Below, in pieces: positions 2,997-56,309 of a stretch of 64,000 nt of DNA (the stretch's first letter is position 1; each line of letters starts with the position of its first letter). Origin of the DNA: Chitinophaga pinensis. Its GTDB lineage: Bacteria > Bacteroidota > Bacteroidia > UKL13-3. The stretch lies in contig CAMDHZ010000008.1 in NCBI GenBank assembly GCA_945898275.1, positions 67,542-131,541 of the forward strand, written 5' to 3'. The translations under genes were made by a program, and so were the position numbers. The notes under the pieces are model-generated. The model did no database searches, had not been told where the DNA came from, and saw only the letters and a list, made by a program, of their open reading frames with translations.

Positions 2997-3389
2997 TTAT
3001 TTTTCCCAAGGGTTGATTAATTTTAAACCAATAATGGCGTTAAAGTCAGTAATATTTCGACTAAGTAAAGTAAGCCCATAAACGGAAGCTGTTGCAGCTA
3101 TAATTGCATCAGGTAATTTAATTTTGTGAATTCTTCGAATTTCTGCTGTTTTAGTTTTTATCTCTTTTTCTAACTCTATTACTAATGAATCATTTATAAA
3201 ATTTCTCAAAATTTCAAGGTCATAAGGTGTAGCTGTTTTCCAACAAAGCAATTCAATTTCTGTAATAGCCGAAATAACTGGTCGTTCGCTTATTAAAAGT
3301 TCATCTATAAAGATTTCAGCATTGGCTGGGAATTGCTGTTGCAAATAATAAATCACTGTATTTGTATCCCATAAATAATTTACTCCCAT
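2997..3389 (-). CDS. vapC: PIN-domain ribonuclease toxin, VapC-like
   Basis: 130 aa. The PIN acidic residues are in place (LWDTNTVI, ITEIELL, DAIIAATA, NITDF). It overlaps the upstream small ORF by 10 nt. Confidence 0.75.
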   Translation of the reverse strand: MGVNYLWDTNTVIYYLQQQFPANAEIFIDELLISERPVISAITEIELLCWKTATPYDLEILRNFINDSLVIELEKEIKTKTAEIRRIHKIKLPDAIIAATASVYGLTLLSRNITDFNAIIGLKLINPWEK

Positions 3390-4812: not shown

Positions 4813-4862
4813 GAGTTAAATAAATTATTTTTCTATTTCTTTGCATTATATAATTTTAAAGT

Positions 4863-6333: not shown

Positions 6334-6339
6334 TTAACC

Positions 6340-6879
6340 TTGGCTGAACAAAATGTTGTATTGAATAACCTTACTTTTGAATTACACATTCAGAACTCAG
6401 AAATTGAATTAAGAATAACGCAACTAGCAAAATTATTGGCAAAAGGGCATTCAAACGCCAATCCACTCTTCATATCAGTACTCAATGGTTCCTTTATTTT
6501 TGCTGCAGATTTGCTTAGGCAACTCGATTTTGCCTGCGAAATAGAGTTTGTAAAAGTGAGTAGTTATGCAGGAACCCAAAGCACTAGAGAGGTTAAACAA
6601 GTGTTGGGATTAAGTAAATCTATAGAAAATAGGACAGTAATTATCCTCGAAGATATTATCGATTCTGGTTTAACCATGGATTTTTTACTCTGCGACTTGG
6701 CTCGGTTCAAACCGAAACAAATAGAAATTTGTACTTTATTATTGAAACCGGAAGCTTTAAAAGTAAAACTTCCGGTTAATTATATTGGTTTTGAAGTAGC
6801 CAATGATTTTTTAGTAGGATATGGCCTAGATTATGATGGCCATGGCAGAAATTTGCCACATATTTATAAAGCGGTTTGA
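6340..6879 (+). CDS. hpt: Hypoxanthine phosphoribosyltransferase
   Basis: 179 aa with the PRPP-binding motif VIILEDIIDSGLT. The stop codon TGA lies inside a copy of the GGTTTGAACC motif. Confidence 0.85.
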   Translation: MAEQNVVLNNLTFELHIQNSEIELRITQLAKLLAKGHSNANPLFISVLNGSFIFAADLLRQLDFACEIEFVKVSSYAGTQSTREVKQVLGLSKSIENRTVIILEDIIDSGLTMDFLLCDLARFKPKQIEICTLLLKPEALKVKLPVNYIGFEVANDFLVGYGLDYDGHGRNLPHIYKAV

Positions 6880-6891
6880 ACCCAGCTTTAA

Positions 6892-7353
6892 TTAAGCCAT
6901 TTTTACATTTACAGCCTGCGGGCCTTTATGGTTAGTTTCTATTTCGAAACTCACTTTGTTGCCTTCTTTGATATTTACAGTTAAACCAGATGAATGCACA
7001 AATACGCCTTCCTTAGTTTTGTCGTCTTTGATAAACCCATAACCTTTACTTTCATTAAAAAAGGTTACTATACCTGTGCGATGTGGGTCATATATCTCTG
7101 CCACTTGCTTGGCAACACCTATTTCGATATCTTCTAATTTAAATTCTTTTTTCCTGCTAGGATCTGGTGGAACCGAAGTTAAGTTTCCATTTTCATCAAC
7201 ATAAGCCATCATGTGCTCCATGCCCATACCTTTTGAAGAACTAGATTTTCTTTGCTCTTTCTTTTCTTCTTTTTCTTTACGCTTGCGTACTTTTTGTTTT
7301 TCTTTTTCCTTCTTGCTGAAGGTTTCTTGTGATTTTGCCATATAAGTTAACAA
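6892..7353 (-). CDS. Cold-shock-domain protein with a K/E-rich N-terminal extension
   Basis: The C-terminal CSD has RNP-like motifs GIVTFFNESKGYGFI and VFVHSS. The N-terminal part is lysine/glutamate-rich low complexity. Confidence 0.75.
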   Translation of the reverse strand: MLTYMAKSQETFSKKEKEKQKVRKRKEKEEKKEQRKSSSSKGMGMEHMMAYVDENGNLTSVPPDPSRKKEFKLEDIEIGVAKQVAEIYDPHRTGIVTFFNESKGYGFIKDDKTKEGVFVHSSGLTVNIKEGNKVSFEIETNHKGPQAVNVKMA

Positions 7354-7500
7354 AGATAATTGTTTATCTAACAGATTTTGAATTATTTTTCAACTTATTT
7401 TGGTTTGTTTTTCACAAAAAGACTGTTCAACTTTTATTTTTTTATAAAAATCATTTGACTAACCCAAATTATACTTTTTATTCGCATCAAAATTAATTCT

Positions 7501-8073
7501 ATGCTCAACCTTGTATTATTTGGACCTCCTGGCGCAGGCAAAGGCACTCAATCAGCCAAACTTATTGATAAATACCATTTGGTACATCTTTCGACAGGCG
7601 ATATTTTTAGAGCCAATATCAAAGGTGGGACTGAATTAGGCGTGCTTGCAAAAAGTTATATCGACAAGGGTCAGCTTGTTCCAGATGAAGTTACTATTGG
7701 TATGCTTGCCGATGAAGTAAATAAATCAGCAGATGCAAAAGGATTTATCTTTGATGGCTTCCCAAGAACTTCTGCTCAAGCCCAAGCCTTGGATAACCTT
7801 TTATCTGAAAAAGGTACCGCAATTTCTATGATGTTGGCTTTGGAAGTTGAGGAGGAAGAACTCAAGAAGCGTTTGCTTATTAGAGGCAAAGACAGTGGCC
7901 GACCAGATGACCAAGACCCAACGATTATTCAAAATAGAATCAATGTTTACAATGCCGAAACAATGCCTGTAAAGACTTTTTATGAAGGTCAGGGAAAGTA
8001 CCACGGTATCAATGGAATTGGTGAAATTGAAGATATTTTCAATTCACTTTGCGAACATATTGACAGGCCATAA
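7501..8073 (+). CDS. adk: Adenylate kinase
   Basis: It has the P-loop LVLFGPPGAGKGTQS and an ADK LID/NMP-binding layout. Confidence 0.9.
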   Translation: MLNLVLFGPPGAGKGTQSAKLIDKYHLVHLSTGDIFRANIKGGTELGVLAKSYIDKGQLVPDEVTIGMLADEVNKSADAKGFIFDGFPRTSAQAQALDNLLSEKGTAISMMLALEVEEEELKKRLLIRGKDSGRPDDQDPTIIQNRINVYNAETMPVKTFYEGQGKYHGINGIGEIEDIFNSLCEHIDRP

Positions 8074-8093
8074 TATTTGGTCCTTTGTGTTGA

Positions 8094-8130
8094 AGCCTGC
8101 AAAAGCTATCTTTGCAGGCATTTTTAATTT
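8094..8130 (+). terminator. Rho-independent terminator after adk
   Basis: A 9-bp stem GCCTGCAAA/TTTGCAGGC with a 7-nt loop is followed by ATTTTTAATTT. Confidence 0.45.
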
Positions 8131-8137
8131 ATAGCAC

Positions 8138-9139
8138 ATGGCCGAGTCTAATTTTGTTGATTACGTAAAAATCTGTTGCCGCAGTGGAAAAGGCGGAGCA
8201 GGTGCCATGCATTTTCACCGCGACAAGCATACTACCAAGGGCGGCCCTGATGGCGGAGATGGCGGCCGAGGTGGTAATATCCTACTGAAAGGAAGCGCAA
8301 ATGTTTGGACGCTTTTACATTTAAAATTCAGAAAACATGTTATTGCAGAACCTGGCAATAACGGAGAATCTGCCCTTAGAAGCGGTAAGGATGGCAAAGA
8401 TGAAATCATTGAAGTACCCTTAGGAACAGTTGCTAAAGATGCCGATACTGGTGAAGTTCTCTTTGAGATTACCAATGTAGGAGAAACTCATGTGCTTTTA
8501 GCAGGAGGTAGAGGTGGGCAGGGAAACCACCATTTTAAATCTTCTACCAACCAAACCCCACGACATTCGCAACCAGGAGAAGAAGGTAAGGAAGAGTGGA
8601 AAGTTCTTGAGTTGAAAATATTAGCAGATGTTGGTTTGGTAGGATTTCCAAATGCTGGGAAGTCAACCTTGTTATCAGTTGTAACTGCTGCAAAACCTGC
8701 TATTGCAGATTATCCTTTTACTACCTTGGTGCCAAATTTAGGAATTGTAAAATATAGAGAATACCAGTCTTTTGTTATGGCAGATATTCCAGGAATCATT
8801 GAAGGCGCCCACGAAGGAAAAGGTTTAGGTACTCGTTTTTTAAGGCACATTGAAAGAAATGCAACTTTGTTGTTTATGATTCCAGCCACCTCAGCAAACA
8901 TCAAAGACGATTTTGCAGTTTTAAAAAGGGAACTCAAACTTTACAATAAAGAATTGCTTAATAAATCTCGTTTGTTGGCAATTACCCAATGTGATTTGGT
9001 AAGTAAAGAAGAAATAAAAGCCATTAAAAAGCTGTTGCCTCGCGTGCCACATGTTTTTATTAGCTCAGCTACTGGAATGGGAATTGATGAATTAAAAGAT
9101 AAACTTTACGACTTAATTCATAATTCAACCGACCTTTAA
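8138..9139 (+). CDS. obg: GTPase Obg/CgtA
   Basis: The N-terminal Obg fold is glycine-rich ([10 protein letters not shown]). G1 [10 protein letters not shown]3 DIPG and G4 TQCD motifs are present. Confidence 0.9.
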
Positions 9140-9627
9140 ACCTTAGTTTCTTCAAAAGAGCCAGTTTGTTTGTTTTTGCGGCAATTGTCCCAAGTAAAAC
9201 ATTTTCCATTCATGGCAATATACACACCATGAGGCAAGGTTTGAGCAAAAGCTAGTGCGCTTCCAAGGTTAAATAAACCGTCGCTAGAGCCAAATTTATA
9301 GGGAATCATTGCGCCAGTTATAACGATAGTTTTGTTTTTTACGGTTTGAGCCAAAAAAGCGCCAGTGTCAGTCATTGTATCAGTGCCATGCGTGATGACA
9401 ATGCGTTCTTCTTCACAATTTTCGCAATTTTCTGCAATTAATTTGCGATCACTATCTGTCATGTCTAAGCTATCAATAAGCATTAACGTGCGAATGGAGA
9501 GGTCTAATTTACTGCGACCAAGTTTTAAAATTTCATGAATGTGACTGTCTTGAAAAAAAAGCTTTCCAGTTAATTCATTGTATTCTTTATCAAAAGTGCC
9601 ACCTGTTACAAATAATCTGATTGCCAT
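9136..9627 (-). CDS. Asparaginase N-terminal-domain protein (short, 163 aa)
   Basis: It carries VTGGTFD and [11 protein letters not shown], both L-asparaginase family signatures. Only the N-terminal domain is present. It is convergent with obg and overlaps it by 4 nt. Confidence 0.55.
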
Positions 9628-9829
9628 AATGCAAAGAAAAGAATTTATTGGATATGTTTTCCGTATTCATCTGATTCGCAAATTTGACAATCATATTCAA
9701 ACATATTTAAACGCTAATTGTCATAATTTTCTACAACATTTATAGATTAAGCCATTACGCCACAATTCTTGTATTTTAAAGTGAATTGCATAGTTTCGTA
9801 GCTTCATTTATAATTTATCATCTAAATTA

Positions 9830-11680
9830 ATGACTGCACATATAGATAAAGAAGTTGAATCTGTAGTAATTCGCTTTGCCGGTGACTCTGGCGATGGGAT
9901 GCAACTTACAGGTACTCAATTTACTAATTCAACCGCCCTTTTCGGGAATGACCTAGCTACTTTCCCAGATTTTCCTGCTGAAATACGCGCCCCATTGGGC
10001 ACGCTGGCTGGCGTTTCGGGCTTTCAAATTCATTTTGGTTCAACCCGAGTTTATACCCCTGGCGACCAATGCGATGTATTGGTGGTTATGAACGTTGCGG
10101 CTTTGAAAGTTAACTTAAACGGCCTCAAAAAGGGGGGAGTTATCATTGTTAATACAGATGGATTTGATGCCAAAAACCTTCGTTTAGCGAATGTGCCCGA
10201 AGCAGATAATCCACTGAAAAATGATTCTTTGAGCGAGTATGATGTTAAAACCATCGATGTTACCAAAATTACAAGGACTGCCTTAGCAGATAGCGGATTA
10301 GGAACCAAGGAAATAGACCGTTGCAAAAACATGTTTGTTTTGGGTTTAATTTATTGGATGTACCACCGCGAAATGGACAATACCATAGATTTTATCAAGG
10401 CTAAATTCAAAAAGAATGAAGCAGTGATGAATGCCAATATCAAGACACTGACGGCTGGTTGGAATTACGGTGAAACCACAGAAATGTTTGCCAATAGGTT
10501 CAATGTAGCCAAAGCAAAAATGGACCCAGGTGTTTATCGAGGTATCATGGGAAATCAAGCAGCTACCTATGGCTTAATCGCCGCAGCAGTGAAATCTGGT
10601 TTGCCGTTGTTTTATGGTACCTATCCAATTACTCCCGCATCTGATATCCTGCATGAACTAAGCAAGTATAAGAACTTCGACATCAAAACCTTCCAAGCAG
10701 AAGATGAAATTGCAGGAATTTGTGCTGCTATTGGTGCATCTTTTGGCGGAAGTCTTGCAGTTACTGGTTCATCTGGCCCTGGTATTGCGCTTAAAACCGA
10801 AGCCATTGGCCTGGCAACCATGCTTGAACTGCCGCTTGTGGTGGTAAATGTTCAACGTGCTGGCCCAAGCACAGGTTTACCAACTAAAACCGAACAAGCA
10901 GATTTGTTACAATCCTTCTATGGAAGAAATGGCGAATGCCCAGTAGTTATTTTAGCTGCGCAATCGCCTGCAGATTGTTTTATCATGGCTTATGAGGCTT
11001 GCCGCATAGCCCTTGAACATATGATTCCTGTTTTCTTCCTTTCTGATGGATATATTGCAAATGGTGCAGAACCATGGAAATTCCCAACTGCTGCAGAATT
11101 ACCTGCAATTACAGTTGCTTTTGCAGAGGCTCGAAACAAAGGAGATGAACCTTTTATGCCTTACCTGCGTGATGAAAAACTAGGCAGACCATGGGCAGTT
11201 CCAGGAACAAAAGGCTTAGAGCATAGAATTGGTGGATTAGAAAAACAAAACATTACAGGTAATATCAGTTATGATGCAATGAACCATGAAAATATGGTGA
11301 AATTGCGTCAAGAAAAAGTGGATAGAGTTGCAAATTATATTCCAGCACAAGCTATAGACAATGGTCCGGAAGAAGGTGATTTGTTGATTTTAGGTTGGGG
11401 TGGAACTTACGGAGCACTTAAAACTGCAACCTTGCAACTTAGAGGAATGGGGTACAATGTTTCACATGCCCATTTGCGTTACCTTAATCCTTTTCCTTCT
11501 AACTTGGCAGAATTGTTAGGTAAGTTTAAAAAGGTGGTGATTCCAGAACTCAACAATGGACAATTGGTTAAAATTATCCGTGACAAATATTTTATAGACG
11601 CTATTCCATATAACAAAATCCAAGGTCAGCCCTTTATGGCCGCAGAAGTTGTTGCTAAAATTAAAGAAATACTCGACTGA
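9830..11680 (+). CDS. korA: 2-oxoglutarate/2-oxoacid:ferredoxin oxidoreductase subunit alpha
   Basis: 616 aa with fused alpha/gamma-type domains. The stop abuts the beta-subunit start. Confidence 0.8.
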
Positions 11681-11682
11681 TT

Positions 11683-12708
11683 ATGACAGATCTAGCAGAA
11701 AAATTAACAGCTAAAGATTTTTCTTCAGACCAAGAGGTGCGCTGGTGCCCAGGTTGTGGAGATTATTCTATATTAAAGCAAGTTCAAACTGTTTTACCAG
11801 AATTGAACCGACCAAGAGAAGAGTTTGTTTTCATATCAGGGATAGGTTGCTCTTCGCGCTTTCCTTATTACATGGATACTTTTGGTATGCATTCTATTCA
11901 TGGTCGTGCAACAGCCGTGGCTACGGGCTTAAAATCAACCCGCCCAGAGCTTTCAGTATGGATTATCACTGGCGATGGAGATGCCTTATCTATTGGTGGA
12001 AACCACTTCATTCATTTGCTACGCCGCAATCCGGATGTGAATGTATTGTTGTTTAACAACCAAATTTATGGGTTAACAAAAGGACAATATTCTCCAACAT
12101 CTGAGCAAGGTAAGGTAACCAAATCAACGCCAATGGGAAGTTTGGATTATCCTTTTAATCCTATTGCTTTGAGTCTTGGTGCAGATGCAACTTTTGTGGC
12201 ACGCAGCATGGATAGAGACCCGAAGCATTTGCAAATGGTAATCAAAAGAGGCTATGAGCATGCAGGTACTTCCTTGGTGGAAATATACCAAAATTGCAAT
12301 GTATTCAATGATGGCGCATTCGAAATATTTACCGAAAAAGGTTCTAAGAAATTAGAAACCATTATGCTCGAAAATGGCAAGCCACTTGTGTTTGGTGAAA
12401 ACAATGATAAGGGTATAAAACTCGATGGGTTCAAACCGATAATTGTTGATTTGAACGATGCTTCAGTAAACGACCTTTGGATACATGATGAAGAAGACTT
12501 GGTTAAAGCCACTATACTCTCTAGGTTTTATGATGATCCAAGTATTGAAGGTCATTTCCCAAGACCGTTTGGCATTTTCTATGTTAACAACAAGAAAGAA
12601 ACCTTCGATAATTTGTTCAATGCGCAAATCGCATATGCCAAAGAAACTTTTGGCAAAGGAGATTTAGACAAATTGATTGCAGGTAAAGAAACTTGGGTTG
12701 TTAATTAA
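11683..12708 (+). CDS. korB: 2-oxoglutarate/2-oxoacid:ferredoxin oxidoreductase subunit beta (TPP-binding)
   Basis: It has the [10 protein letters not shown] cysteine motif and the TPP-binding GDGD…NN region. It starts 3 nt after korA. Confidence 0.8.
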
Positions 12709-12828
12709 TTTTTTGGTTTCGGTTTGAACCGATGATAAAAACATAAATGTTGTTTTTGTTTGGATTTTTAATTTGTAAATTATTAAGAAATGTAATTCTT
12801 AATTTTGAACTAATTAAACAACATAACC

Positions 12829-15411
12829 ATGAAACAATCTTTACCAAAGCAACTTGCTAGGGTATTCTTTTTACTAGCCTTAATCATCATATCAGTTTCC
12901 AGCTATACAAATAGCAGTGGACCGTCAACTGGCAATACTGGTGCCCCTTCAGAATCCGCCTGTGGTGGCTGCCATGGCGTAGCCACAATTACCGGTACCA
13001 ATTATAACGCTATAACCCTAACAGGTATCGCAGGTAATAGTTATGTTGCGGGTCAAACTTATACTGTAACTATCAGCGGCAATGCAGCGGCTACTTCACG
13101 CAATGGTTTCCAAATTACTGCGCTTAATTCATCAAATGCTGCTGCTGGTACATTTACAGCTGGAACTGGAAACACAGCAAGCAGCGCTGGAGGTAGAAAT
13201 TACGTTACTCATAATTCAACTGGTAATACGCAAACTTCATGGAGCTTTCAATGGACAGCACCAAATCCTTCCGTTGGCAATATTACATTTTACCTGGCTT
13301 TCAACGCCACCAATGCCAACTCGGCGACTAGCGGCGATATAGTTTATGCGAAAACATTTACCATCACAAGTGCCGTAGCTGCGCCAGTAGCAACCATCAC
13401 TTCACCAGCCAATGCTGCTGTATTCTGCGTAGGTGATACTGTTCAATTTACTGGAACTGCTACCAATAGCCCTACTAGTTTTGCATGGGATTTCTTAGGT
13501 AATACACCTGCCTCATCCGCACAACAAAATCCAAGAATAGTATTAGGGCCAAATGCAGGTTCTAGAACCATTAGGTTTAGAGCAACCAACGCAGGTGGAA
13601 CTTCACCCAATGCACAAATTGTAATAAATGTTGTGGCTAAGCCAACAGCAACTATTTCAAGTTCAAATACTATAATTTGTGGAACCGACTCAGTTACCTT
13701 AACAGCTAATTCTGGTAACGGACTTAGCTATTTATGGAGCCCAGGAGGGCAAATAACTCAAACTATCAAAACAGCAACACCTGGAAATTATACGGTTCGT
13801 GTAACAAATACGGGCAATTGTTCAATAACGAGCGCAGTAACTACGCTCACAGCTGGAGTTAAGCCTAGTTTAACCGCCACACTTTCTAGCAATAATCTTT
13901 GTATTGGTGATAGCTTAGAAATTACTGCCACACCAGGATTACAAAACTATAAGTACTTTTTTGGTTCAACCCTAATGGATTCAAGTGCCAACAATAAGAA
14001 AAAGTTCTTGATTAACACAGGCTTCTCCACAGTATTTGTTACAGGTTCAAATGGGGTTTGTACGAGTGATCCAGATATAAAATCTGTTAGTATTTCAACC
14101 AAACCTTCTGCTCCAAGTATATCTTGTGGTCCGGTAAATTCTAACTTTGTTTCCTTTACAATTACAGGGAACAATCCACAAATTAGTTTGGATAGTGGTA
14201 AAACATATATTACTCCAAATCAAGGAAACACACATTTAATAACTGGTTTAAGTCCTAATACACAGATTTTAGCATTTGCTAGAACAAGTACATCGGCTCC
14301 TTGTTTATTTTCATTGGCAAGCGGTAAAAGTTGTGCAAGTGCAAACTGTACTCCATTAACCTTGCAAATAAAAGCTCCACGCTACATCTGCGCTAACAAT
14401 CCTACAAGTGATAAAATGATTAAAGTGGTTTCTACAAACGCAACAAACCCATATTATAAGTTTGATTACCCTCAGCCTTTTATTGGCAGCGGTTGGACAA
14501 AATCAGATTCTTTTCCTGCTCAAACTTCACCTTCTGGTGATAGAATTCATAAGGTTACGGTTATTGATTCTGCAAATGCATTTTGCCCAACAAAGGATAC
14601 TAGTTTTACTATTACAGTGGTAAATATTCAGGCGCTGAGCCTCCAATTGAATTTAGATAAAGTTAAGTATTGTTCAGGAGAGTCAATAACTTTTGACATT
14701 TCAAATCCTATTCCAACAAATATCAATAAAATGATTTACTATACAGTTGTTGGTTCAAACCGAACAGAATTTGGCGCTAAAGCTAAACCTAATTATAAGT
14801 TTGGCCCCGTTTCGCTTATTCCAAATTTCCCCAACGGAACAATTGTAACTGCGCAAGCTTTAGATTCTGCTTCTGGTTGTGGCATTTTTTCAAATAATGC
14901 AACCATTAATGTGGATCCTTTGCCAAATGTAGGGTTTACCATTTCTAAAGCTAATTTAGAAGTGGAGCTAACAGATACGAGCAGCAATACTGTAAGAAGA
15001 AATTGGATCATAAATGGTGATACTTTCCCAACAACCAATAAAGTTTACCGCCATGTTTTTGGCACTGCGGGTTCAAAAGTAATTTTAATGGACGCCTTCA
15101 CTGCAAATGACTGTAAAGGTAGCTTAAGCTTACCTGTAAATGTTGTTGCTACAGGTTTATTGGATGCAGCAAATGCTCTAGGAATGCAGTTATATCCAAA
15201 TCCTGCGAATGATAAAGTTACCATTAACTGGGGAGAAAGTGTTGGCCAATTGCAAATGAAAATTTATGATCAATTAGGAAAATTACTTTTAACCAAAGAA
15301 GTTGTAAAAGGGGAGCAATTAGACCTTAAAACTTTTGCTGCTGGGGTTTACACTGTTCAATTAAGTTCAGACGACAAACAAAGTCAGATAAGACTAGTCA
15401 TAGGAAATTAG
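12829..15411 (+). CDS. Large secreted T9SS cargo protein with Ig/PKD-like repeats; the N-terminal domain contains a CxxCH motif
   Basis: 860 aa with a signal peptide. The sequence ACGGCHG is encoded at 12961..12978. The rest is T/S/N-rich beta-repeat regions. The C-terminal T9SS sorting domain reads LYPNPANDKVTINW… A TAATTTTG element lies at 12800..12807. Confidence 0.6.
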   Translation: MKQSLPKQLARVFFLLALIIISVSSYTNSSGPSTGNTGAPSESACGGCHGVATITGTNYNAITLTGIAGNSYVAGQTYTVTISGNAAATSRNGFQITALNSSNAAAGTFTAGTGNTASSAGGRNYVTHNSTGNTQTSWSFQWTAPNPSVGNITFYLAFNATNANSATSGDIVYAKTFTITSAVAAPVATITSPANAAVFCVGDTVQFTGTATNSPTSFAWDFLGNTPASSAQQNPRIVLGPNAGSRTIRFRATNAGGTSPNAQIVINVVAKPTATISSSNTIICGTDSVTLTANSGNGLSYLWSPGGQITQTIKTATPGNYTVRVTNTGNCSITSAVTTLTAGVKPSLTATLSSNNLCIGDSLEITATPGLQNYKYFFGSTLMDSSANNKKKFLINTGFSTVFVTGSNGVCTSDPDIKSVSISTKPSAPSISCGPVNSNFVSFTITGNNPQISLDSGKTYITPNQGNTHLITGLSPNTQILAFARTSTSAPCLFSLASGKSCASANCTPLTLQIKAPRYICANNPTSDKMIKVVSTNATNPYYKFDYPQPFIGSGWTKSDSFPAQTSPSGDRIHKVTVIDSANAFCPTKDTSFTITVVNIQALSLQLNLDKVKYCSGESITFDISNPIPTNINKMIYYTVVGSNRTEFGAKAKPNYKFGPVSLIPNFPNGTIVTAQALDSASGCGIFSNNATINVDPLPNVGFTISKANLEVELTDTSSNTVRRNWIINGDTFPTTNKVYRHVFGTAGSKVILMDAFTANDCKGSLSLPVNVVATGLLDAANALGMQLYPNPANDKVTINWGESVGQLQMKIYDQLGKLLLTKEVVKGEQLDLKTFAAGVYTVQLSSDDKQSQIRLVIGN

Positions 15412-21984: not shown

Positions 21985-23436
21985 TTAAGCCTCTTTAATA
22001 TTTGCAATTACTTCAAGGAAGTACTTCCAGAATTTTTGAACCGAGCTAATCTGCACACATTCGTCTGGAGAGTGCGCACCTCTAATGTTTGGTCCAAATG
22101 ATATCATTTGCATTTGAGGATAGTTAATGCCTAAAATGCCACATTCTAAACCTGCATGTACGGCATTTACATGGGGTTTTTCGTTGAACATTTCTTCATA
22201 TTGATGTTGCATCATTTTCACAATAGCCGAATTGGGTAGGGGAGCCCAACCTGGATATTCCCCTTTGGTTTGGGTTTCGCCATTTAAAAATTCTAATGCA
22301 CTTACAATCATTTCGGCCAAGTCAAGTTTTTCAGAATCTACAGAGCTTCTGCAAAGGCAGTGTATTTCGTAGGTTTCGTTTTGAACCAACACCCTAGCTA
22401 AGTTATTTGAGGATTGAACCAATCCATCTATACCAGGTGTCATGCGGTATATGCCGTTTGGTATAGTATATAAAGCCCCAATGAGATTTTTAGTAAAAGC
22501 AGCTGGCAAACAATGGCTGGTTTCTTCAGCTTCTTTCAGGCTAAGTAACAGTTGTGGGTCGGTTAAAAGATTTTCAATTTTAAAAATACCCGCCAAACGA
22601 TTTATGATATTTGCTAAAATATTAGACTCACTAGCAGGAATGGCAATCACAGCAACTGCCTCTCTTGGAATGGCATTGCGCAAACTACCTCCATCAAATT
22701 TAACCAATCTAAAGGCAATGGTTTTCTGAATTTCTTTTAAGGTGCGTGTCATTAATTTATTGGCATTGGCTCTACCCAAATGAATGTCCATACCAGAATG
22801 TCCGCCAGTTAATCCATTTACTGTTAAAGTATAGGTTTTCCAGTTGCCTGGAACAGCTTCTGCAGTATATTTTCCAACGCCAGAAACGTCTATGCCACCT
22901 GCACATCCAATGCAAAGCTCTCGATCGTCTTCTGTGTCTAGGTTTAGTAAAATATTTCCATTTAAAACACCCGCTTCAAGTCCCATAGCACCTGTCATGC
23001 CCGTTTCTTCATCTATTGTAAAGAGGGCTTCTATGGCAGGATGTTGAATCTCAGTTGAACTTAACAGCGCCATGATGGTTGCCACCCCAATTCCATTATC
23101 GGCTCCTAAAGTGGTGCCACGCGCACGCACCCAATCTCCATCTATAAACATGTCTATGCCTTGAGTTGCAAAATCAAATTGGGTATCTGCATTTTTTTGG
23201 TGCACCATGTCTAAGTGGCTTTGCAAAACAAGGGTTGGTCTAGCCTCCATACCAATTGTTGCAGGCTTTTTAATGATAACATTTCCTACGGCATCCTTGG
23301 TAGTTTGAAGTTGCAATGAAGCACCAAAATCCAACATAAACTGAATGATTTGCGCTTCTTTTTTAGAAGCTCTTGGTATGGCATTCAGGGCCGAGAAATG
23401 GTCCCATAAAGCTTTTGGTTCAATATTGTTTAACAT
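21985..23436 (-). CDS. pepD: Aminoacyl-histidine dipeptidase (Xaa-His dipeptidase), M20 family
   Basis: 483 aa with M20 metal-binding motifs (HLDMV, DNGIGVA, ETGMTGA). Confidence 0.8.
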   Translation of the reverse strand: MLNNIEPKALWDHFSALNAIPRASKKEAQIIQFMLDFGASLQLQTTKDAVGNVIIKKPATIGMEARPTLVLQSHLDMVHQKNADTQFDFATQGIDMFIDGDWVRARGTTLGADNGIGVATIMALLSSTEIQHPAIEALFTIDEETGMTGAMGLEAGVLNGNILLNLDTEDDRELCIGCAGGIDVSGVGKYTAEAVPGNWKTYTLTVNGLTGGHSGMDIHLGRANANKLMTRTLKEIQKTIAFRLVKFDGGSLRNAIPREAVAVIAIPASESNILANIINRLAGIFKIENLLTDPQLLLSLKEAEETSHCLPAAFTKNLIGALYTIPNGIYRMTPGIDGLVQSSNNLARVLVQNETYEIHCLCRSSVDSEKLDLAEMIVSALEFLNGETQTKGEYPGWAPLPNSAIVKMMQHQYEEMFNEKPHVNAVHAGLECGILGINYPQMQMISFGPNIRGAHSPDECVQISSVQKFWKYFLEVIANIKEA

Positions 23437-23581
23437 GATGTTTGAATATAGTGCACTAAAATAGGGTAAAACTTGGAATTGGCCATCTGCTTTTAAAAAA
23501 CTCCTCCTAATCCCAATTGTCTATTTTAAGAAGATGTTTTGGTTTCGTCTTGGCATTAGTTTTTTAACATAAAATTAGGAC

Positions 23582-23700
23582 GTTTACTAATTTTAGTACA
23601 TTAATGTTTACTAATTTTAGTACATTTGTGTTTGCTAAGATTAATACATGTATGTTTGCTAAGATTTGTGCATGTATGTTTACTAAAATTAGTACATAAA
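23582..23700. repeat. Five tandem 24-bp iteron-like repeats (consensus GTTTACTAATTTTAGTACATnnnn), each with the internal inverted repeat TACTAA-N4-TTAGTA
   Basis: The units start at 23582, 23606, 23630, 23654 and 23678. Units 1, 2 and 5 are near-identical. Units 3 and 4 are a diverged subtype (GTTTGCTAAGATT..). The array ends 10 bp before the Fic start codon. Confidence 0.75.
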
Positions 23701-23710
23701 AACTAAGATA

Positions 23711-25270
23711 ATGGCAACTCCGCAGGAGAAATTTGTTGAGGCGCTACGCCTTTTAAAAGAACTACAAGACAGGGGAGTAGTGGGCATACATATTTCTAGC
23801 CTTCCCAACATAAAGCACAGGCAATTGCTTATCAAGCATGGCTTTATTCGAGAGGTAAGCAAAGGGTGGTACATTGCTACTGATCCTGCTGAAATAAATG
23901 GAGAAACAACCGCATGGTTTAGTTCCTATTGGGAGTTTATTGCACAATATCTCGAGCATAAATACAATGAAAATTGGTGTTTGTCTGCCGATCAATCTTT
24001 GGCCATACATGCAGGTAATTGGACAATTCCAGAACAATTGATAGTAAGGTCATCGAAAGGAAATAACAAGCCGACACCTCTACCATATTCAACCTCTTTT
24101 TTTAATTTAAAAACTGATATACCCGCAAAGGGGCATTTAGTTGTTTACAAAGGCATTAGATTATACAGTTTACAAGCGGCCCTTGTTTATTGCACGGCAG
24201 CGTCATTTTCTTATCGCCCCATTGATGCCCGCACCGCGCTTTCTCTCATCAGAGATGCTTCAGAGGTATTACCAATTCTTTTAGAAAACGGACATACAAA
24301 ATATGCGGGTCGCTTGGCAGGTGCTTTTCGAAATAATACCCAAGAAAAAATTGCAGTTCAAATCATCGAGACCTTTAAGCAAGCGGATTATGAAATTAGG
24401 GTAGAAGATCCCTTCAACCAGAAACTTACCATACAGCTTTCAAATCGCACAAGTTCTCCTTATGTAAACCGTATTCGCCTCATGTGGCAGCAAATGAGAG
24501 AAGTTGTTTTAGCACATTTGCCGCCTTCAGTGATATTACCTAATGAGCAACAAAAATTGTTTAAAGTTATTGATGATATTTATCTTACAGATGCTTACCA
24601 TTCATTATCTATAGAGCGATATAAAGTAACACCAGCTTTGATAGAGAAAGTTAGTTCTGGCAAATGGAATTTAAAGGATAATATGGAGGATAGGAAACAA
24701 AGAGATGCCATGGCAGCTAGAGGTTATTATCAATCATTCTTAGCAGTTAAAGAATCCATTAAATCAATACTTGATGGCGGCAATCCAGGTGTTGTTGCAA
24801 ACAACCAACATTCAAAGTGGTATCGAGAATTGTTTGATCCAAGTGTAGCAGCAGGAATTTTGCGCCCATCCGATTTGGCCGGATACCGCAGTCATCAAGT
24901 GTATATTGGCAATTCTAAACATGTGCCTTTAAGTGTTGACGCTATGCGCGATGCCATGCCCGTTTTGTTTGAATTGTTGGAAGAAGAAAAAGAAGCTGCA
25001 GTAAGGGCAGTTTTAGGTCATTTTATATTTGTTTTTATTCATCCGTATATGGATGGAAATGGAAGAATTGGTCGCTTTTTAATGAATGTTATGCTAGTCA
25101 CCGGTGGCTATCCATGGATTGTGATTCCCTTTGAAAATAGAGATGAATACATGAAGGCGCTAGAAAGTGCCAGTGTTGCCATGGATATTGAACCTTTTGC
25201 TAAATTTATCAGCCTTTTGCTCAAAGAAAGCCTTTCTGGAAAAAGTCGTGCGGTTTTACCCAAGCAATAA
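23711..25270 (+). CDS. Fic/Doc-family protein (AMPylase-type)
   Basis: It has the canonical Fic motif HPYMDGNGRIGRFLMN (HxFx[DE]GNGRxxR). Confidence 0.85.
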   Translation: MATPQEKFVEALRLLKELQDRGVVGIHISSLPNIKHRQLLIKHGFIREVSKGWYIATDPAEINGETTAWFSSYWEFIAQYLEHKYNENWCLSADQSLAIHAGNWTIPEQLIVRSSKGNNKPTPLPYSTSFFNLKTDIPAKGHLVVYKGIRLYSLQAALVYCTAASFSYRPIDARTALSLIRDASEVLPILLENGHTKYAGRLAGAFRNNTQEKIAVQIIETFKQADYEIRVEDPFNQKLTIQLSNRTSSPYVNRIRLMWQQMREVVLAHLPPSVILPNEQQKLFKVIDDIYLTDAYHSLSIERYKVTPALIEKVSSGKWNLKDNMEDRKQRDAMAARGYYQSFLAVKESIKSILDGGNPGVVANNQHSKWYRELFDPSVAAGILRPSDLAGYRSHQVYIGNSKHVPLSVDAMRDAMPVLFELLEEEKEAAVRAVLGHFIFVFIHPYMDGNGRIGRFLMNVMLVTGGYPWIVIPFENRDEYMKALESASVAMDIEPFAKFISLLLKESLSGKSRAVLPKQ

Positions 25271-25296
25271 TCTTCCAAACCGCCATTTATCTCCCT

Positions 25297-28200
25297 CTAA
25301 AAACTCCTCCCCATCCCAACTACCCATCTAAAGGCAGTGTTTTGGGTTTCGCCTGATAAAGGTTGGCTGAGATAAAAAGGCATATCAAAGCGAAGGGTCA
25401 AAGGTTTTGGATCATCCAAGATTCCCCATTTTTTGATGGTTAATGCAATTCCAGCACCTGCATCAGCTAAAACACTTGTTTCGAGTTTTAGGTTGCCAAA
25501 TTGTTTACCTAAAAATCCTACATCTGCAAACAAGTAACTATCAAAGTGTACATATTTATTTAGTCCCTTAGGATTGATAAAGGATAGATAATTGTCAAAA
25601 TCAACTTCTACATTTATAGAGCTGCCATATTTGCCACTAATTGCTTCGAACTTTGTATTGTCAAAGGTGATAAAATTAACATACCCTGCATAACCTCTTA
25701 GGTTCAAACCTCCCCCTACCTGAAAATGATTCCCTTCAGTTGTATAATTCATCCATTGCTCAGGCACAATGCCTGAAGCACGGGTAAATTTATTTTCTAA
25801 CATTTCCTCAGTATTTGCGCCAGCAAGGTTTATTAAAAATTCTCCAGGCACGCTGCTGCCATCAATATACGCGGCATACAACCTGCTGCGTAATTCAAAC
25901 TTATGCAATTTGTTGGTTTGAACCAATTGCCCATCTATTCCTGCAAAATTGTAATTTGAAAATGGCGCCATTCCTTTCACGTTTAGGGTAATCTTTCCCA
26001 GACCATTAAGCAGTTGGTAGTTTCTTTCATAGGTAAGGTTAAGGGAGTTTACCCAGTTATTAAAACTTGAAACATTGGGCATACCTGGGAACAAAATTTC
26101 AGGAGCAGAATTAACTGGATTAAATGTATAAGATTGGCTATGCCCCAAGTAATAAATTTGGTGGCGTTTCATGGCTTTAATTGAAGCACTAAATTTATTT
26201 TTGCCTATTGTATTTTCCCAGCCAGCTTTGTAAAGGGTTAAACCATCCAAAAATCTGCTTTGAACAAATACTTCTTGAAACTTTTTAAGACGATGACTAT
26301 AGCTGAATTGGTAATGGAATAAATTAATTTCTGGACCTCTTCTGTATTGTTCTGCTAAACGATTGGTGGCTATGCCTGAATTATGCCAAATGCTTAAACT
26401 AAATTTGTGTTTTAGATTAAGATAATTACCATTTAAATGCAGGCCCACTTTAACGCCATCATAATTGTTGTACCAAACATCTGGTCGCCATTTTAGCGAA
26501 TAATTATGCCTATTTGGAGGCGACGAGATTTGATGATCAAAACTAAATAGCACAGGTAACTTTTTGGAGTTATCTAGCAGGTTAACATCTGCCAATCGCT
26601 TACTTGGGTCAATTATTACATCCTTTACTTTTCCAGTAACAGGCACCAAAACTGTGTGGGTAGGATTTAACAATCCCCAACCAGTCCATTTAGGTAAAAC
26701 GGAAGCAGCAGTTTGTTTGTTGAACCAAGTATTTGGGATATAGAAATTTTGTGAAGTATTGTTTTTATATAGAATGCTAAAATCAAGGGGCATTTGCATT
26801 TCGCCCTTTCTTTTAAAGGTAATGGCTACTGTATCTTTATTTATTTGCTTCACGCGAGGTACACCGTAGTCAATGGTTTTGGTGGTTTCCATCCACTGGT
26901 CAAAAAACCAATTTAAATCTACATGGGTGTATTGAATAATGCTATTTCTAAAATCTTCAAAATAGGGATGAGCCATTTTCCATTGGTTAAAATAATGTTG
27001 CATGGCTGCTAAGAAAAGCGAATCGCCCAACACATATTGCAAGTTATACAACATGGTAGCTGTTTTGTAATATACATTGCTGTAACCCCCACCGTGGTGC
27101 AGTGCGCCGTTAAAGTCATCGCTGTGGGTATTAAGTGGCATGTCTAAGTTTAAGATAGCATCTCTAAGGTAACCATACATTACGGTTTGATCCAAACTAG
27201 ACATGGGGATATAGTTTTTTCCTATATATGAATTCCTGTTTACTTTGGTTTCGCCGCGCAAACGACTCATGCTCCAATGGGTTAAAAATTGTGTGAAGCC
27301 TTCATCCAAGCTTGCTCTATAGGTTTCGTTATTGCCCACCATGCCAAAGAACCAGTTGTGGCCAATTTCGTGGGCAAATAAACCGTAATAGCCGGGCGAG
27401 CGACCATTATCAAGCGTTAGCATTGGGTATTCCATACCGTCACGCGCATCGGCCACAATCATTTTTGGGTAGGCATAGGTTCCAAAATCTTTGCTATAAG
27501 TTTGAATGATGAGGGCGTTAAACTTTGCGGCATCTTGCCAACCAGCAGCATGTGGTTCTTGTACTAGCGAGATACAACGAACTTTTCCGCGAGGATTGCC
27601 AAGCATTGGCAATACGTATTCCCCAAGGCGGTAAGTTGGATCGGCAGTCCACGCAAAGTCGTGCGTGTTTACTGCTTTAAATCGCCAAGTTTTTGTTTTG
27701 CCATCTATTGGAATAATCACAGAGGCTGCTTCGCCATAAGGTTTATCTTTAAAATTGCTAATTTCTAACTTGGCTCGAAGTTCCTCGGGGAGTACTTCTG
27801 ATTCATTTTGCAACTCACCTGTGGCATCTAAAATATAATGAGAAGGAAGGGTGAGGTTAATGTCGAATTGGCCGAAATCTCCATAAAATTCTTTGCCAAG
27901 GTGTTGAGCTGTTTCCCAACCAAATTTTCTGTCATATACGCATATACGCGGATACCAATGCACACCATCGTATTGTTTGTTGCCTTGAGGGTCTTTAAAT
28001 GTTTTCATACGTCGACGTTGGTTGCCGCCATCGTCAAAATAAGTTTCGAAATTAATTTGAAAAGTGGCCTTTGCATTAGGCAAAATCGGATTTTTGAGTT
28101 TGATTTTCATGATAGAAAAATCAATGATGGGAGTAGCTAATTCGCCATTAACAAGCACCCTTTGTATAGTTGTGCCTTTGCCATCCAATTCATATTTTCC

Positions 28201-28527
28201 AAATTTCTGTTTGAACCCATTGGCCAAGTTTAATTGCTCGAGGTAGCCTCCTTTTAAAAAGGCATTTTGGTATAAATGGAAATACACTTCATATAAAGTA
28301 TCGGGGGAATTATTGGTATAAATAAGTAGTTCTTCCGCACTTATTACATCAGTTTGGTCGTTTACCTCAGCATTAATTTTATAATGTACATCTTGCTGCC
28401 AGTAAGCATTGTGGGGTTTTCTATTTTTCCAATAATAGGGATTTTCTGCAGAAGCAAAATCAAAATCTTGGGCAAAACCTGAGGTAATAAGAAGTCCAAA
28501 AAATATAGAAAATACGGTTTTCTTCAT
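25297..28527 (-). CDS. Secreted M1-family zinc metallopeptidase with a long beta-rich C-terminal extension
   Basis: 1076 aa with a signal peptide. The HExxH+E region reads FAHEIGHNWFFGMVGNNETYRASLDEGFTQF and the GAMEN-like motif reads GMEY. Confidence 0.7.
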   Translation of the reverse strand: MKKTVFSIFFGLLITSGFAQDFDFASAENPYYWKNRKPHNAYWQQDVHYKINAEVNDQTDVISAEELLIYTNNSPDTLYEVYFHLYQNAFLKGGYLEQLNLANGFKQKFGKYELDGKGTTIQRVLVNGELATPIIDFSIMKIKLKNPILPNAKATFQINFETYFDDGGNQRRRMKTFKDPQGNKQYDGVHWYPRICVYDRKFGWETAQHLGKEFYGDFGQFDINLTLPSHYILDATGELQNESEVLPEELRAKLEISNFKDKPYGEAASVIIPIDGKTKTWRFKAVNTHDFAWTADPTYRLGEYVLPMLGNPRGKVRCISLVQEPHAAGWQDAAKFNALIIQTYSKDFGTYAYPKMIVADARDGMEYPMLTLDNGRSPGYYGLFAHEIGHNWFFGMVGNNETYRASLDEGFTQFLTHWSMSRLRGETKVNRNSYIGKNYIPMSSLDQTVMYGYLRDAILNLDMPLNTHSDDFNGALHHGGGYSNVYYKTATMLYNLQYVLGDSLFLAAMQHYFNQWKMAHPYFEDFRNSIIQYTHVDLNWFFDQWMETTKTIDYGVPRVKQINKDTVAITFKRKGEMQMPLDFSILYKNNTSQNFYIPNTWFNKQTAASVLPKWTGWGLLNPTHTVLVPVTGKVKDVIIDPSKRLADVNLLDNSKKLPVLFSFDHQISSPPNRHNYSLKWRPDVWYNNYDGVKVGLHLNGNYLNLKHKFSLSIWHNSGIATNRLAEQYRRGPEINLFHYQFSYSHRLKKFQEVFVQSRFLDGLTLYKAGWENTIGKNKFSASIKAMKRHQIYYLGHSQSYTFNPVNSAPEILFPGMPNVSSFNNWVNSLNLTYERNYQLLNGLGKITLNVKGMAPFSNYNFAGIDGQLVQTNKLHKFELRSRLYAAYIDGSSVPGEFLINLAGANTEEMLENKFTRASGIVPEQWMNYTTEGNHFQVGGGLNLRGYAGYVNFITFDNTKFEAISGKYGSSINVEVDFDNYLSFINPKGLNKYVHFDSYLFADVGFLGKQFGNLKLETSVLADAGAGIALTIKKWGILDDPKPLTLRFDMPFYLSQPLSGETQNTAFRWVVGMGRSF

Positions 28528-28586
28528 AGGTGCAAAATAATATTTTTACAACAAACCATCGCTGCATTCATTAGCTTTGCCTTAAT

Positions 28587-56201: not shown

Positions 56202-56234
56202 AAAAAAAAGACCCAAAATATTTTGGGTCTTTTG
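56202..56234 (-). terminator. Rho-independent terminator downstream of tRNA-Val
   Basis: On the minus strand the hairpin GACCCAAAATATTTTGGGTC is followed by a T9 run. Confidence 0.5.
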
Positions 56235-56309
56235 TGGAGGCTATAGGATTCGAACCTATGACCCTCTGCTTGTAAGGCAGATGCTCTAAACCAACTGAGC
56301 TAAGCCTCC
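56235..56309 (-). tRNA. tRNA-Val (anticodon TAC)
   Basis: I folded the cloverleaf by hand. The acceptor stem is GGAGGCT/AGCCTCC and the anticodon stem is TCTGC/GCAGA. The anticodon loop is CTTACAA, the T-arm is ATAGGTTCGAATCCTAT, and the discriminator is A. No CCA is encoded. Confidence 0.9.

What the first reader, a model, noticed from the sequence alone, without database searches (positions are those of the whole stretch)
23496..25355. Fic gene looks like an inserted cassette: imperfect ~60-bp direct repeats flank it, one being the 3' end of the adjacent M1-peptidase gene
Sequence at 23496..23553 reads AAAAACTCCTCCTAATCCCAATTGTCTATTTTAAGAAGATGTTTTGGTTTCGTCTTGG. Sequence at 25299..25355 reads AAAAACTCCTCCCCATCCCAACTACCCATCTAAAGGCAGTGTTTTGGGTTTCGCCTGA. 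The two align at about 70%, roughly 43 of 62 positions, and far better at the ends (AAAAACTCCTCC and GTTTTGG-TTTCG).

The right copy encodes the last residues (…VVGMGRSF-stop) of the minus-strand M1-peptidase gene. The left copy is a decayed non-coding duplicate lying 1.8 kb away, beyond the Fic gene. This is the footprint expected when an element integrates into the 3' end of a gene and carries a replacement gene end.

No integrase is present, so this may be an old, immobilised cassette. It could also be a site-specific-recombination target shared with elements elsewhere in the genome. Fic toxins are frequent cargo of such islets.
Basis: seen in the sequence. Interest (0 to 1): 0.55.

Follow-up and report, generated by a model that had tools for sequence, protein, structure and literature searches.

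The report
Fic gene islet with duplicated gene-end
A single Fic (AMPylase) gene of the kind carried by Bacteroidota conjugative elements was inserted into the end of a peptidase gene, duplicating about 70 bases of that gene end; a sister lineage used the same site a second time, so this is a small, decayed, integrase-less insertion scar of a well-known kind.

Summary
The repeat is real. Window 23485-23551 and 25289-25355 align at about 70%, with a local score of 27, against a maximum of 18 in about 2900 real control segments. The window holds only these two copies.

Comparative data support an insertion:
- More distant relatives (L003, L010) have M1 followed directly by pepD, with one copy of the gene end and no Fic.
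- Closer relatives (L188, L001) have Fic at the same place with much better preserved repeats.
- L171 lost the Fic ORF by internal deletion but kept both repeat copies.
- L184 has three copies of the M1 3' end, arranged M1 / DUF1016 / copy 2 / Fic / copy 3 / pepD. The gene end was therefore hit twice, and each hit displaced the previous end.

The cargo is a FICD-like Fic gene plus a conserved 24-bp tandem array. Elsewhere this module sits inside Bacteroidota ICEs. No integrase is present in the window or in any related locus.

The best reading is Campbell-type integration carrying a replacement gene end, followed by decay, as in a cis-mobilizable element (CIME) with accretion. Whether an integrase or RecA did the joining is unresolved.

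The cassette alleles now also move between lineages by homologous recombination: Fic is 98% identical between the window and L188, against about 90% for the flanks.

It is a new member of a known kind, of moderate interest.

The parts
25289..25355 (-). R copy of the direct repeat. This is the functional 3' end of the M1-peptidase gene (last 19 codons, stop at 25297-25299) plus about 8-10 nt past the stop.
   Evidence: It is conserved in all relatives, including the empty-site genomes L002 and L003.
23485..23551 (-). L copy of the direct repeat. This is a displaced, non-coding, decaying duplicate of the M1 3' end, lying 48 nt upstream of pepD. Its M1-proximal 17 nt (23535-23551, AAGACGAAACCAAAACA in M1 sense) carry a signature shared with L188.
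   Evidence: Identity to its own R copy is 16/20 in the 5' part and 28/40 in the 3' part.
23711..25270 (+). Fic gene (519 aa). The Fido domain is FICD-like, with active-site motif HPYMDGNGRIGR and an inhibitory-helix-like SLSIER. The N-terminal ~250 aa have no known domain.
   Evidence: Pfam Fic 4.2e-12. PDB FICD 1.2e-18. Foldseek top hits are FICD. PADLOC SoFic 8.7e-23, over the Fic domain only. Homologs are 65-71% identical across Bacteroidota and ICE-borne.
23558..23697 (+). Tandem array of about 5-6 units of 24 bp (consensus GTTTACTAAGATTAGTACATGTAT, palindromic core TACTAAnnTTAGTA) directly upstream of Fic. It is probably the operator/promoter region that travels with the gene.
   Evidence: the repeat finder family D1. 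TRF gives 23582-23697, period 24, 4.8 copies. The same array lies upstream of Fic homologs in ICEs.
25271..25288 (.). 18-nt spacer between the Fic stop codon and the R copy (the cassette edge on the M1 side).
23552..23557 (.). Junction between the L copy and the first (degenerate) array unit (the cassette edge on the pepD side).
25297..28527 (-). M1-family peptidase gene (1076 aa), the target gene whose 3' end was duplicated.
21985..23436 (-). pepD (beta-Ala-His dipeptidase, M20), the downstream neighbour. Its native upstream region (23437-23484) is conserved with the empty-site genome L003.

Best explanation
The Fic gene and its 24-bp upstream array are horizontally acquired DNA. This module is otherwise found inside Bacteroidota integrative conjugative elements (ICEs).

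Proposed mechanism:
1. The module entered the chromosome by a Campbell-type (single reciprocal crossover) integration into the last ~57 nt of the M1-peptidase gene.
2. The incoming DNA carried its own copy of that gene end. M1 therefore kept an intact reading frame; this is the R copy, 25289-25355.
3. The original end was pushed 1.8 kb away, next to pepD, where it now decays. This is the L copy, 23485-23551.
4. The joining was most likely done by a site-specific (tyrosine-type) recombinase. That recombinase belonged either to a larger element later trimmed by deletions, or to an element acting in trans.

What is left is an immobilised, integrase-less islet, comparable to a cis-mobilizable element (CIME).

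The same gene end was used again in a sister lineage by a DUF1016 nuclease cassette. That insertion displaced the then-current gene end and produced a three-copy array (accretion, youngest cassette nearest M1).

Today the islet is inherited vertically, is eroded by deletions, and its alleles are exchanged among related lineages by homologous recombination.

Shown: the insertion, the duplication, the recurrence, the ICE origin of the cargo family, the decay and the recombination tracts.
Inferred: the circular intermediate and the identity of the enzyme.
For: Insertion and duplication:
- The repeat is far above chance and unique in the window.
- Empty sites with one gene end occur in L003 and L010.
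- The occupied site has a well-preserved repeat in L001 (49/55) and L188 (38/40 in the 3' part).
- L171-L173 keep both copies, three array units and the first ~30 and last ~25 nt of Fic after an internal deletion. The insert is therefore ancestral to the clade and is being eroded.

Recurrence:
- L184 reads M1 / DUF1016 / copy 2 / Fic / copy 3 / pepD. The 3' flank of copy 2 is identical to the M1 stop-flank of L001.
- This order matches the three-step CIME/accretion model described for integrative mobilizable elements (IMEs) (PMC5704250).
- It also matches the tandem ssrA islands of Dehalococcoides, some of which lack integration genes (PMC3146451).

Foreign origin and decay of the cargo:
- Fic homologs 65-71% identical occur across Bacteroidota classes.
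- They lie within ICEs, next to T4CP/relaxase/MobC.
- Or they are the second gene from the end of a 99.8-100% identical ICE present in six different chromosomal contexts, between two large serine recombinases.
- They are always preceded by the same array.
- The DUF1016 cassette still carries about 40 nt of the hsdM 3' end and about 35 nt of the hsdS 5' start from its native type I R-M context. It is therefore a trimmed remnant of a bigger insert.

Lateral movement after insertion:
- Between the window and L188, the flanks are 88-91% identical in nucleotides but Fic is 98.1% identical.
- The high-identity tract ends inside the L copy, right after its 17-nt 5' signature.
Against: - No integrase, excisionase or transposase is found in the window or in any of about 10 related loci. 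No att-like copy is found in viral contigs.
- The two insertion events duplicated different stretches: M1 -57..+12 for Fic and -175..+1 for DUF1016. This is compatible with different elements carrying mimics of different length, but is also what a non-site-specific process would give.
- None of 150+ other M1 loci from related families shows a repeat, so the site is not a widely used attB.
- The cassette is trimmed to within about 6 and 18 nt of the repeats. This is tidy for random decay of a large element.
- The decay of the L copies is heterogeneous, which suggests later gene conversion or re-acquisition that blurs the original junctions.
Confidence: 0.5

Rival explanations
1. The topology is the same (insertion with duplication of the M1 end), but no site-specific recombinase was involved. 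Two routes are possible. In the first, a DNA fragment from a relative, containing the M1 3' end plus an adjacent foreign gene, circularised and integrated by RecA-mediated single crossover. In the second, it entered by homology-facilitated illegitimate recombination, with the illegitimate join falling upstream of the gene end. Once made, the repeat acts as a built-in second homology arm, so the cassette can invade naive M1 loci by ordinary double crossover.
For: - No recombinase is found anywhere.
- The two events have different duplication limits.
- The DUF1016 cargo is an arbitrary fragment of a type I R-M locus, with pieces of both neighbours.
- There are clear homologous-recombination tracts at this locus. 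The window/L188 tract starts about 400 nt inside M1 and ends inside the L copy.
- The DUF1016 ORF is 94-99% identical between L184 and L002, while M1 is about 80%.
Against: - It does not explain why two independent duplicative insertions hit the same gene end in one small clade.
- It requires the foreign gene to have been next to M1 already in some donor, which only moves the problem.
- Campbell insertion on 57-175 nt of homology is inefficient.
Confidence: 0.3
2. Local duplication came first. A short tandem duplication of the M1 end arose by slippage or unequal crossing-over, and foreign genes were later dropped between the two copies.
For: Direct repeats can promote unequal crossing-over. 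L184 shows that copy number at this site can change.
Against: - No genome has two copies without cargo or a cargo scar. The 'empty-looking' L171 still holds Fic ends and array units.
- Copy 2 of L184 reaches to -175, beyond the limits of the Fic repeat. It is therefore not a derivative of the first duplication.
- It needs two rare events each time.
Confidence: 0.07
3. The similarity is not a duplication of this gene end. It is either chance or a remnant of a paralogous gene with a similar C-terminus.
For: At 70% identity over about 65 nt, the window pair alone is modest.
Against: - The score is far outside the controls.
- The similarity continues past the stop codon.
- The L copies of L188 and L001 are 88-95% identical to their own M1 ends.
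- The repeat is absent from 150+ other M1 loci.
Confidence: 0.02

Closest known systems
CIMEs (cis-mobilizable elements) and tandem accretion at gene 3' ends (ICESt1/CIME of Streptococcus thermophilus; IME review PMC5704250)
   Same: [quoted passage not shown] A second element has integrated into the att copy that contains the gene end, giving a tandem array with the youngest element nearest the gene (L184).
   Different: No cognate integrase or functional relative of the element is known here. Each unit is a single gene of about 1.2-1.9 kb. The repeat lengths differ between the two units (about 70 and about 175 nt). The host is an uncultured freshwater Bacteroidota, and the target is an M1 peptidase gene.
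Dehalococcoides ssrA genomic islands (PMC3146451)
   Same: There are several islands in tandem downstream of one gene, each bounded by a direct repeat of that gene's 3' end. Some islands lack an integration module. A short motif upstream of the repeat does not match the gene, which marks the crossover side. The 17-nt AAGACGAAACCAAAACA signature of the L copies here is comparable.
   Different: There, the repeat is a fixed 20 bp, many islands still carry the serine integrase dsiB, and the target is tmRNA. Here, no integrase remains, the repeats are longer and of variable extent, and the target is a protein-coding gene.
Phage 21 / e14 integration into icd of E. coli
   Same: The element integrates inside the 3' part of a protein-coding gene and brings an alternative gene end of tens to more than 100 nt. 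This leaves a displaced, slightly different pseudo-end at the far side.
   Different: Those are prophages or prophage remnants with their own integrase. Here there is a single non-phage gene and no integrase.
Defence-gene hotspots / single-gene defence islets between core genes
   Same: Both cargos match candidate single-gene anti-phage systems in PADLOC: DUF1016 matches PDC-S02 at 2e-139, and the Fic domain matches SoFic at 8.7e-23. Content varies between close relatives at a fixed core-genome position.
   Different: Defence function is untested. The Fic match covers the Fic domain only, and the protein is 519 aa with an unrelated N-terminal half.

Membership tests
Site-specifically integrated island / CIME | [quoted passage not shown] | tested here: met
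   The R copy is the M1 3' end and the L copy is its duplicate.
Site-specifically integrated island / CIME | Empty site with a single copy in relatives | tested here: met
   L003 and L010.
Site-specifically integrated island / CIME | A cognate integrase, in the element or in a related intact element at the same site | tested here: not met
   None is found in the window or in L001, L171-L174 and L184-L188. The viral scans were empty. Whole genomes of the clade could not be searched.
Site-specifically integrated island / CIME | Tandem accretion at the gene-proximal att copy | tested here: met
   L184 has three copies, with DUF1016 between M1 and the older Fic unit.
Site-specifically integrated island / CIME | Excision as a circle, or a precise restored attB | not testable with these tools
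   This needs read-level data. L001 compared with L184 (97% nt identity, without and with DUF1016) is compatible with precise loss, but equally with the pre-insertion state.
Integron gene cassette | attC: an imperfect palindrome that folds as single-stranded DNA, with intI nearby | tested here: not met
   The repeat folds no better than shuffles (z from -0.08 to 0.91). No integrase is present.
Transposon / IS | Transposase, terminal inverted repeats and a short target-site duplication | tested here: not met
   There is no transposase. No inverted repeats pair the cassette ends. The duplication is 67-175 nt.
Fic/Fido AMP-transferase | Fido fold with the HxFx(D/E)GNGRxxR motif | tested here: met
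   The motif HPYMDGNGRIGR is invariant in 30 homologs. Pfam Fic scores 47.2 bits against a cutoff of 24. FICD hits come from both sequence and fold searches.
SoFic anti-phage defence | Full-length match to SoFic (Fic plus C-terminal wHTH, about 370 aa) and a demonstrated defence phenotype | tested here: inconclusive
   The PADLOC SoFic hit covers residues 283-507 only. NCBIfam SoFic scores 27 bits against a cutoff of 550. No phenotype was tested.

The most novel reading that the evidence does not exclude
The M1 3' end could be the growing point of an integrase-less, integron-like array of single defence genes in uncultured Bacteroidota. Each cassette would carry a copy of the target gene's end. 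That copy would act as a portable homology arm (or as the site for a recombinase encoded elsewhere), so the cassette could home into naive M1 genes without disrupting them, stacking with the newest cassette nearest the gene. The 24-bp array and the unknown N-terminal half of the ICE-borne Fic protein might also take part in DNA transactions rather than only in regulation.
Probability: 0.15. Interest if true: 0.65.

Novelty: new member of a known kind. Interest (0 to 1): 0.4.

Why it matters
This is a clean, sequence-resolved example of how single accessory or defence-type genes from conjugative elements and restriction-modification loci become fixed between core genes without leaving any mobility gene. 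It shows that an imperfect duplicate of a gene's 3' end can be the only remaining clue.

The series across relatives captures the whole life cycle in one small clade:
- empty site;
- one cassette;
- two cassettes with three repeat copies;
- a scar after deletion.

That makes the M1/pepD junction of this freshwater Bacteroidota lineage a usable natural system for asking two questions: whether such islets are built by integrases or by homologous recombination, and how fast they decay.

It does not reveal a new kind of element.

Tried and rejected
- **Metagenome scan with M1.** The best relative was 61% identical, so it was of no use for strain-level presence/absence.
- **Exact look-up of the window's pepD.** It is not on record.
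- **att-like pattern scans of viral contigs, three patterns.** All gave zero hits.
- **The idea that the M1-pepD gap is a general hotspot.** L004, L006, L008 and L012 have 2-8 kb there, but the genes are ordinary chromosomal ones: a 1320-aa T9SS surface protein, a small lipoprotein, outer-membrane proteins and a beta-lactamase-like protein. There are no repeats. Rejected.
- **L171-L173 as empty sites.** Gene calls suggested this, but the sequence shows a deletion scar. Rejected as empty sites.
- **attC / integron reading.** No hairpin. Rejected.
- **Transposon reading.** No terminal inverted repeats and no transposase. Rejected.
- **tRNA/tmRNA or another known RNA at the repeat.** None found.
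- **Compositional anomaly of Fic.** None.
- **N-terminal half of Fic.** There is no Pfam hit even at E = 10. The AlphaFold model is of low confidence there (mean pLDDT 69 overall), so no fold assignment was made.
- **Locating the crossover point of the DUF1016 event.** I compared L184 copies 1 and 2 with L001 and L002. The pattern was ambiguous.
Full report
**1. The observation**

The two quoted strings are at 23496-23553 and 25299-25355.
- A global alignment gives 43 identities in 60 columns.
- The best local alignment is slightly longer, 23485-23550 versus 25289-25354, with score 27 under +1/-1 scoring.
- 2000 shuffles of the left intergenic region reached at most 16 (mean 9.7, sd 1.3).
- 2893 real 274-nt segments of the same window, on both strands, reached at most 18.
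- A sensitive blastn of each copy against the 64-kb window finds only the partner (E = 5e-6).

The right copy is the end of the minus-strand ORF 25297-28527 (1076 aa, Peptidase_M1). It reads ...FRWVVGMGRSF-TAG, and the similarity runs about 10 nt past the stop. The left copy is non-coding and lies 48 nt upstream of the start of ORF 21985-23436. That ORF is a beta-Ala-His dipeptidase (TIGR01893, 562.7 bits). Between the copies lie only a 24-bp tandem array (23558/23582-23697) and the 519-aa Fic ORF 23711-25270 (Pfam Fic). GC content shows no anomaly.

**2. Comparative evidence for an insertion**

A scan of one genome per species with the M1 protein returned 80 loci, all from uncultured, mostly freshwater Bacteroidota MAGs. 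Mapping the neighbouring genes and reading the junctions gave three results.
- L001 (M1 92% aa identity) has Fic in the same place. Its repeat is 49/55 identical and includes 12 nt after the stop.
- L003 (76%) and L010 (60%) have M1 followed by pepD after 133 and 177 bp. They have one gene end only, no Fic and no array motif.
- The pepD-proximal 45 nt of the window (23437-23484) is conserved with L003. The left copy therefore sits on native pepD upstream DNA.

Among 162 M1 loci with a recognisable gene end, only the window's own clade shows a second copy downstream. More distant relatives with 2-8 kb between M1 and pepD carry ordinary chromosomal genes and no repeat. The junction is therefore not a general hotspot.

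**3. Close relatives show the life cycle**

Cluster look-ups and contig look-ups gave near relatives.
- L188 and L174 carry Fic.
- L171-L173 look empty by gene calls (M1, then 208 bp, then pepD). The 208 bp consists of the last ~25 nt of Fic fused to its first ~30 nt, three array units and the pepD-proximal repeat copy. The Fic ORF was therefore lost by internal deletion, both copies stayed, and the insertion predates the clade.
- L184 (97% nt identity to L001) reads M1 / DUF1016-YhcG nuclease (364 aa) / copy 2 / Fic / copy 3 / pepD.

Details of copy 2 in L184:
- It corresponds to M1 -175..+1, with an internal 56-nt gap.
- Its downstream flank is identical to the sequence that follows the M1 stop in L001.
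- A second insertion therefore entered the gene end that existed after the Fic event, and displaced it.

L002, L185, L186 and L187 also have DUF1016 right after M1.

The order (youngest unit nearest the gene, each unit followed by a displaced gene end) is the pattern described for decay to a cis-mobilizable element (CIME) followed by accretion at the att copy containing the gene end (PMC5704250). It is also the pattern of the tandem ssrA islands of Dehalococcoides, some of which lack integration genes (PMC3146451).

**4. What the cargo is**

*Fic*
- The Fic protein has a FICD-like Fido domain (PDB 6i7j, E = 1.2e-18; Foldseek top hits are FICD).
- The motif HPYMDGNGRIGR is invariant in 30 homologs.
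- A glutamate lies in an inhibitory-helix-like SLSIER.
- The N-terminal ~250 residues match nothing, and the model is weak there.
- Homologs 65-71% identical occur in Flavobacterium, Sphingobacterium, Chitinophaga, Elizabethkingia and others. Identity that high across classes points to horizontal spread.

*Genomic contexts of the Fic family*
- Inside ICEs, between a 1780-aa methylase/helicase and T4CP/relaxase/MobC/ParA (L087-L090, L177).
- As the second gene from the end of an ICE that is 99.8-100% identical in six different chromosomal contexts, between two large serine recombinases (L178-L183).
- In Sphingobacterium, within a decayed ICE, with remnants of the methylase and the T4CP and with variable DNA beside it (L081-L086).
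- In every context the same 24-bp array precedes the gene. Array plus Fic is therefore one module, and the array is most simply its operator region.

*DUF1016*
- The DUF1016 protein matches the PADLOC candidate PDC-S02 (2e-139). Fic matches SoFic over the Fic domain only.
- Homologs of the DUF1016 gene at 90-94% aa identity sit inside type I R-M loci (L189, Mongoliitalea).
- The L184 cassette still carries about 40 nt of the hsdM 3' end and about 35 nt of the hsdS 5' start. It is therefore a trimmed piece of a larger insert.

**5. Mechanism**

No ORF of 120 aa or more in the window is an integrase, transposase or conjugation gene, and none is found in the related loci. The other candidate mechanisms were checked as follows.
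- The repeat is not a known RNA.
- It does not fold like an attC.
- No inverted repeats pair the cassette ends.
- A 67-175-nt duplication of a gene end excludes transposition.
- It fits a single reciprocal crossover between the chromosome and a circular DNA carrying a copy of that gene end.

Two features bear on the enzyme.

*For site-specificity*
- Two independent events hit the same 57 nt in one small clade.
- Gene-end replacement is the hallmark of integrase-driven islands.
- Both cargo families come from mobile or defence contexts.
- The DUF1016 unit is visibly a decayed remnant.

*Against site-specificity*
- No integrase is found anywhere.
- The two duplications have different limits.
- The site is unused in 150+ other M1 loci.

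I put about 0.5 on an integrase-mediated event followed by decay, and about 0.3 on RecA-mediated or homology-facilitated illegitimate insertion.

**6. After insertion**

Between the window and L188 the flanking genes are 88-91% identical in nucleotides, but Fic is 98.1% identical. The high-identity tract begins about 400 nt inside M1, covers the R copy, Fic and the array, and stops inside the L copy right after its first 17 nt (AAGACGAAACCAAAACA, window 23535-23551). Beyond that point the two genomes are barely alignable.

The L copies are heterogeneous (identities to the genome's own R copy):

| Genome | 5' part | 3' part |
|---|---|---|
| Window | 16/20 | 28/40 |
| L188 | 16/19 | 38/40 |
| L001 | 8/18 | 35/40 |

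The DUF1016 ORF is 94-99% identical between L184 and L002, while M1 is about 80%.

The islet alleles are therefore exchanged between lineages by homologous recombination, and possibly refreshed by conversion. The L copy could serve as the right-hand homology arm when a naive M1 locus is invaded. That last step is inference.

**7. Verdict**

The alternative that the 60-mer is a shared recombination target found elsewhere finds no support.

The structure is a new member of a known kind (a decayed, att-flanked islet with accretion). It occurs in an unusual host, at an unusual target gene, with single-gene units. Interest is moderate. The open point is whether any recombinase was involved.

Noticed in passing
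window 23558-23697; also L087 4846-4985, L177 5830-5920, L001 14853-14965: An array of 5-6 tandem 24-bp units with a palindromic core (TACTAAnnTTAGTA) lies immediately upstream of every member of this 519-aa Fic family. This holds whether the gene is in an ICE, in an ICE remnant or in this chromosomal islet. It looks like a multi-site operator, perhaps for the uncharacterised N-terminal half of the protein. No function is known.
   Followed up: partly
L178-L183, about 4245-13563: A 99.8-100% identical ICE end is present in six different chromosomal contexts and genomes. Its terminal genes are a large serine recombinase (524 aa), the array plus Fic, and a second large serine recombinase (519 aa). 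The element boundary lies about 12 nt beyond the stop of the first recombinase gene. It appears to be a very recently spreading Chitinophaga-type ICE.
   Followed up: partly
L171 5646-5900 (also L172, L173): This is a deletion scar. The Fic ORF is reduced to its first ~30 and last ~25 nt, three array units remain, and both repeat copies are kept. Gene calls make it look like an empty site.
   Followed up: yes
L002 14167 and L185 12155 (contig ends): Two MAG contigs from different species (about 85% nt identity in this region) both break at the same codon (281) of the DUF1016 gene. This suggests that the distal part of the gene is multi-copy, or is shared nearly identically between co-occurring genomes.
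   Followed up: no
L184 11232-11311 and 12403-12440: The lone DUF1016 gene keeps about 40 nt of an hsdM 3' end (with an internal 57-nt deletion) upstream, and about 35 nt of an hsdS start downstream. These are remnants of a type I R-M operon like that of L189.
   Followed up: yes
L001 15020-15110, L171 5855-5942, L184 14348-14437: Gene callers extend pepD by 29 codons (512-513 aa instead of 483-484). They start at a TTG inside the displaced M1-end copy, in a different frame from M1. The extension is not conserved in the window or in L188, so it is probably an annotation artefact created by the repeat.
   Followed up: partly
window 28528-28586 versus L171 821-2416 and L174 6132-8001: There is a second presence/absence difference on the other side of M1. 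L171, L172 and L174 have an amine-oxidase-like gene (395 aa) plus a small ORF between Smr and M1. In the window, L001, L184 and L188, Smr abuts M1 directly.
   Followed up: no
window 2997-3389 (-): This is a 130-aa PIN-domain ORF (Pfam PIN, 1.1e-10), possibly a VapC-type toxin. I did not look for an antitoxin partner.
   Followed up: no
window 25356-25700 (M1 3' 400 nt), and M1 generally: M1 is mosaic between close relatives. Identity in 60-100-nt windows ranges from about 65% to 100% within one gene pair (window versus L188, L184 versus L001, L184 versus L002). This indicates frequent short recombination tracts in this gene.
   Followed up: partly
window 56234-56309 (-): tRNA-Val (TAC) is the only tRNA in the window. 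Nothing is integrated next to it, as far as ORF annotation shows.
   Followed up: no
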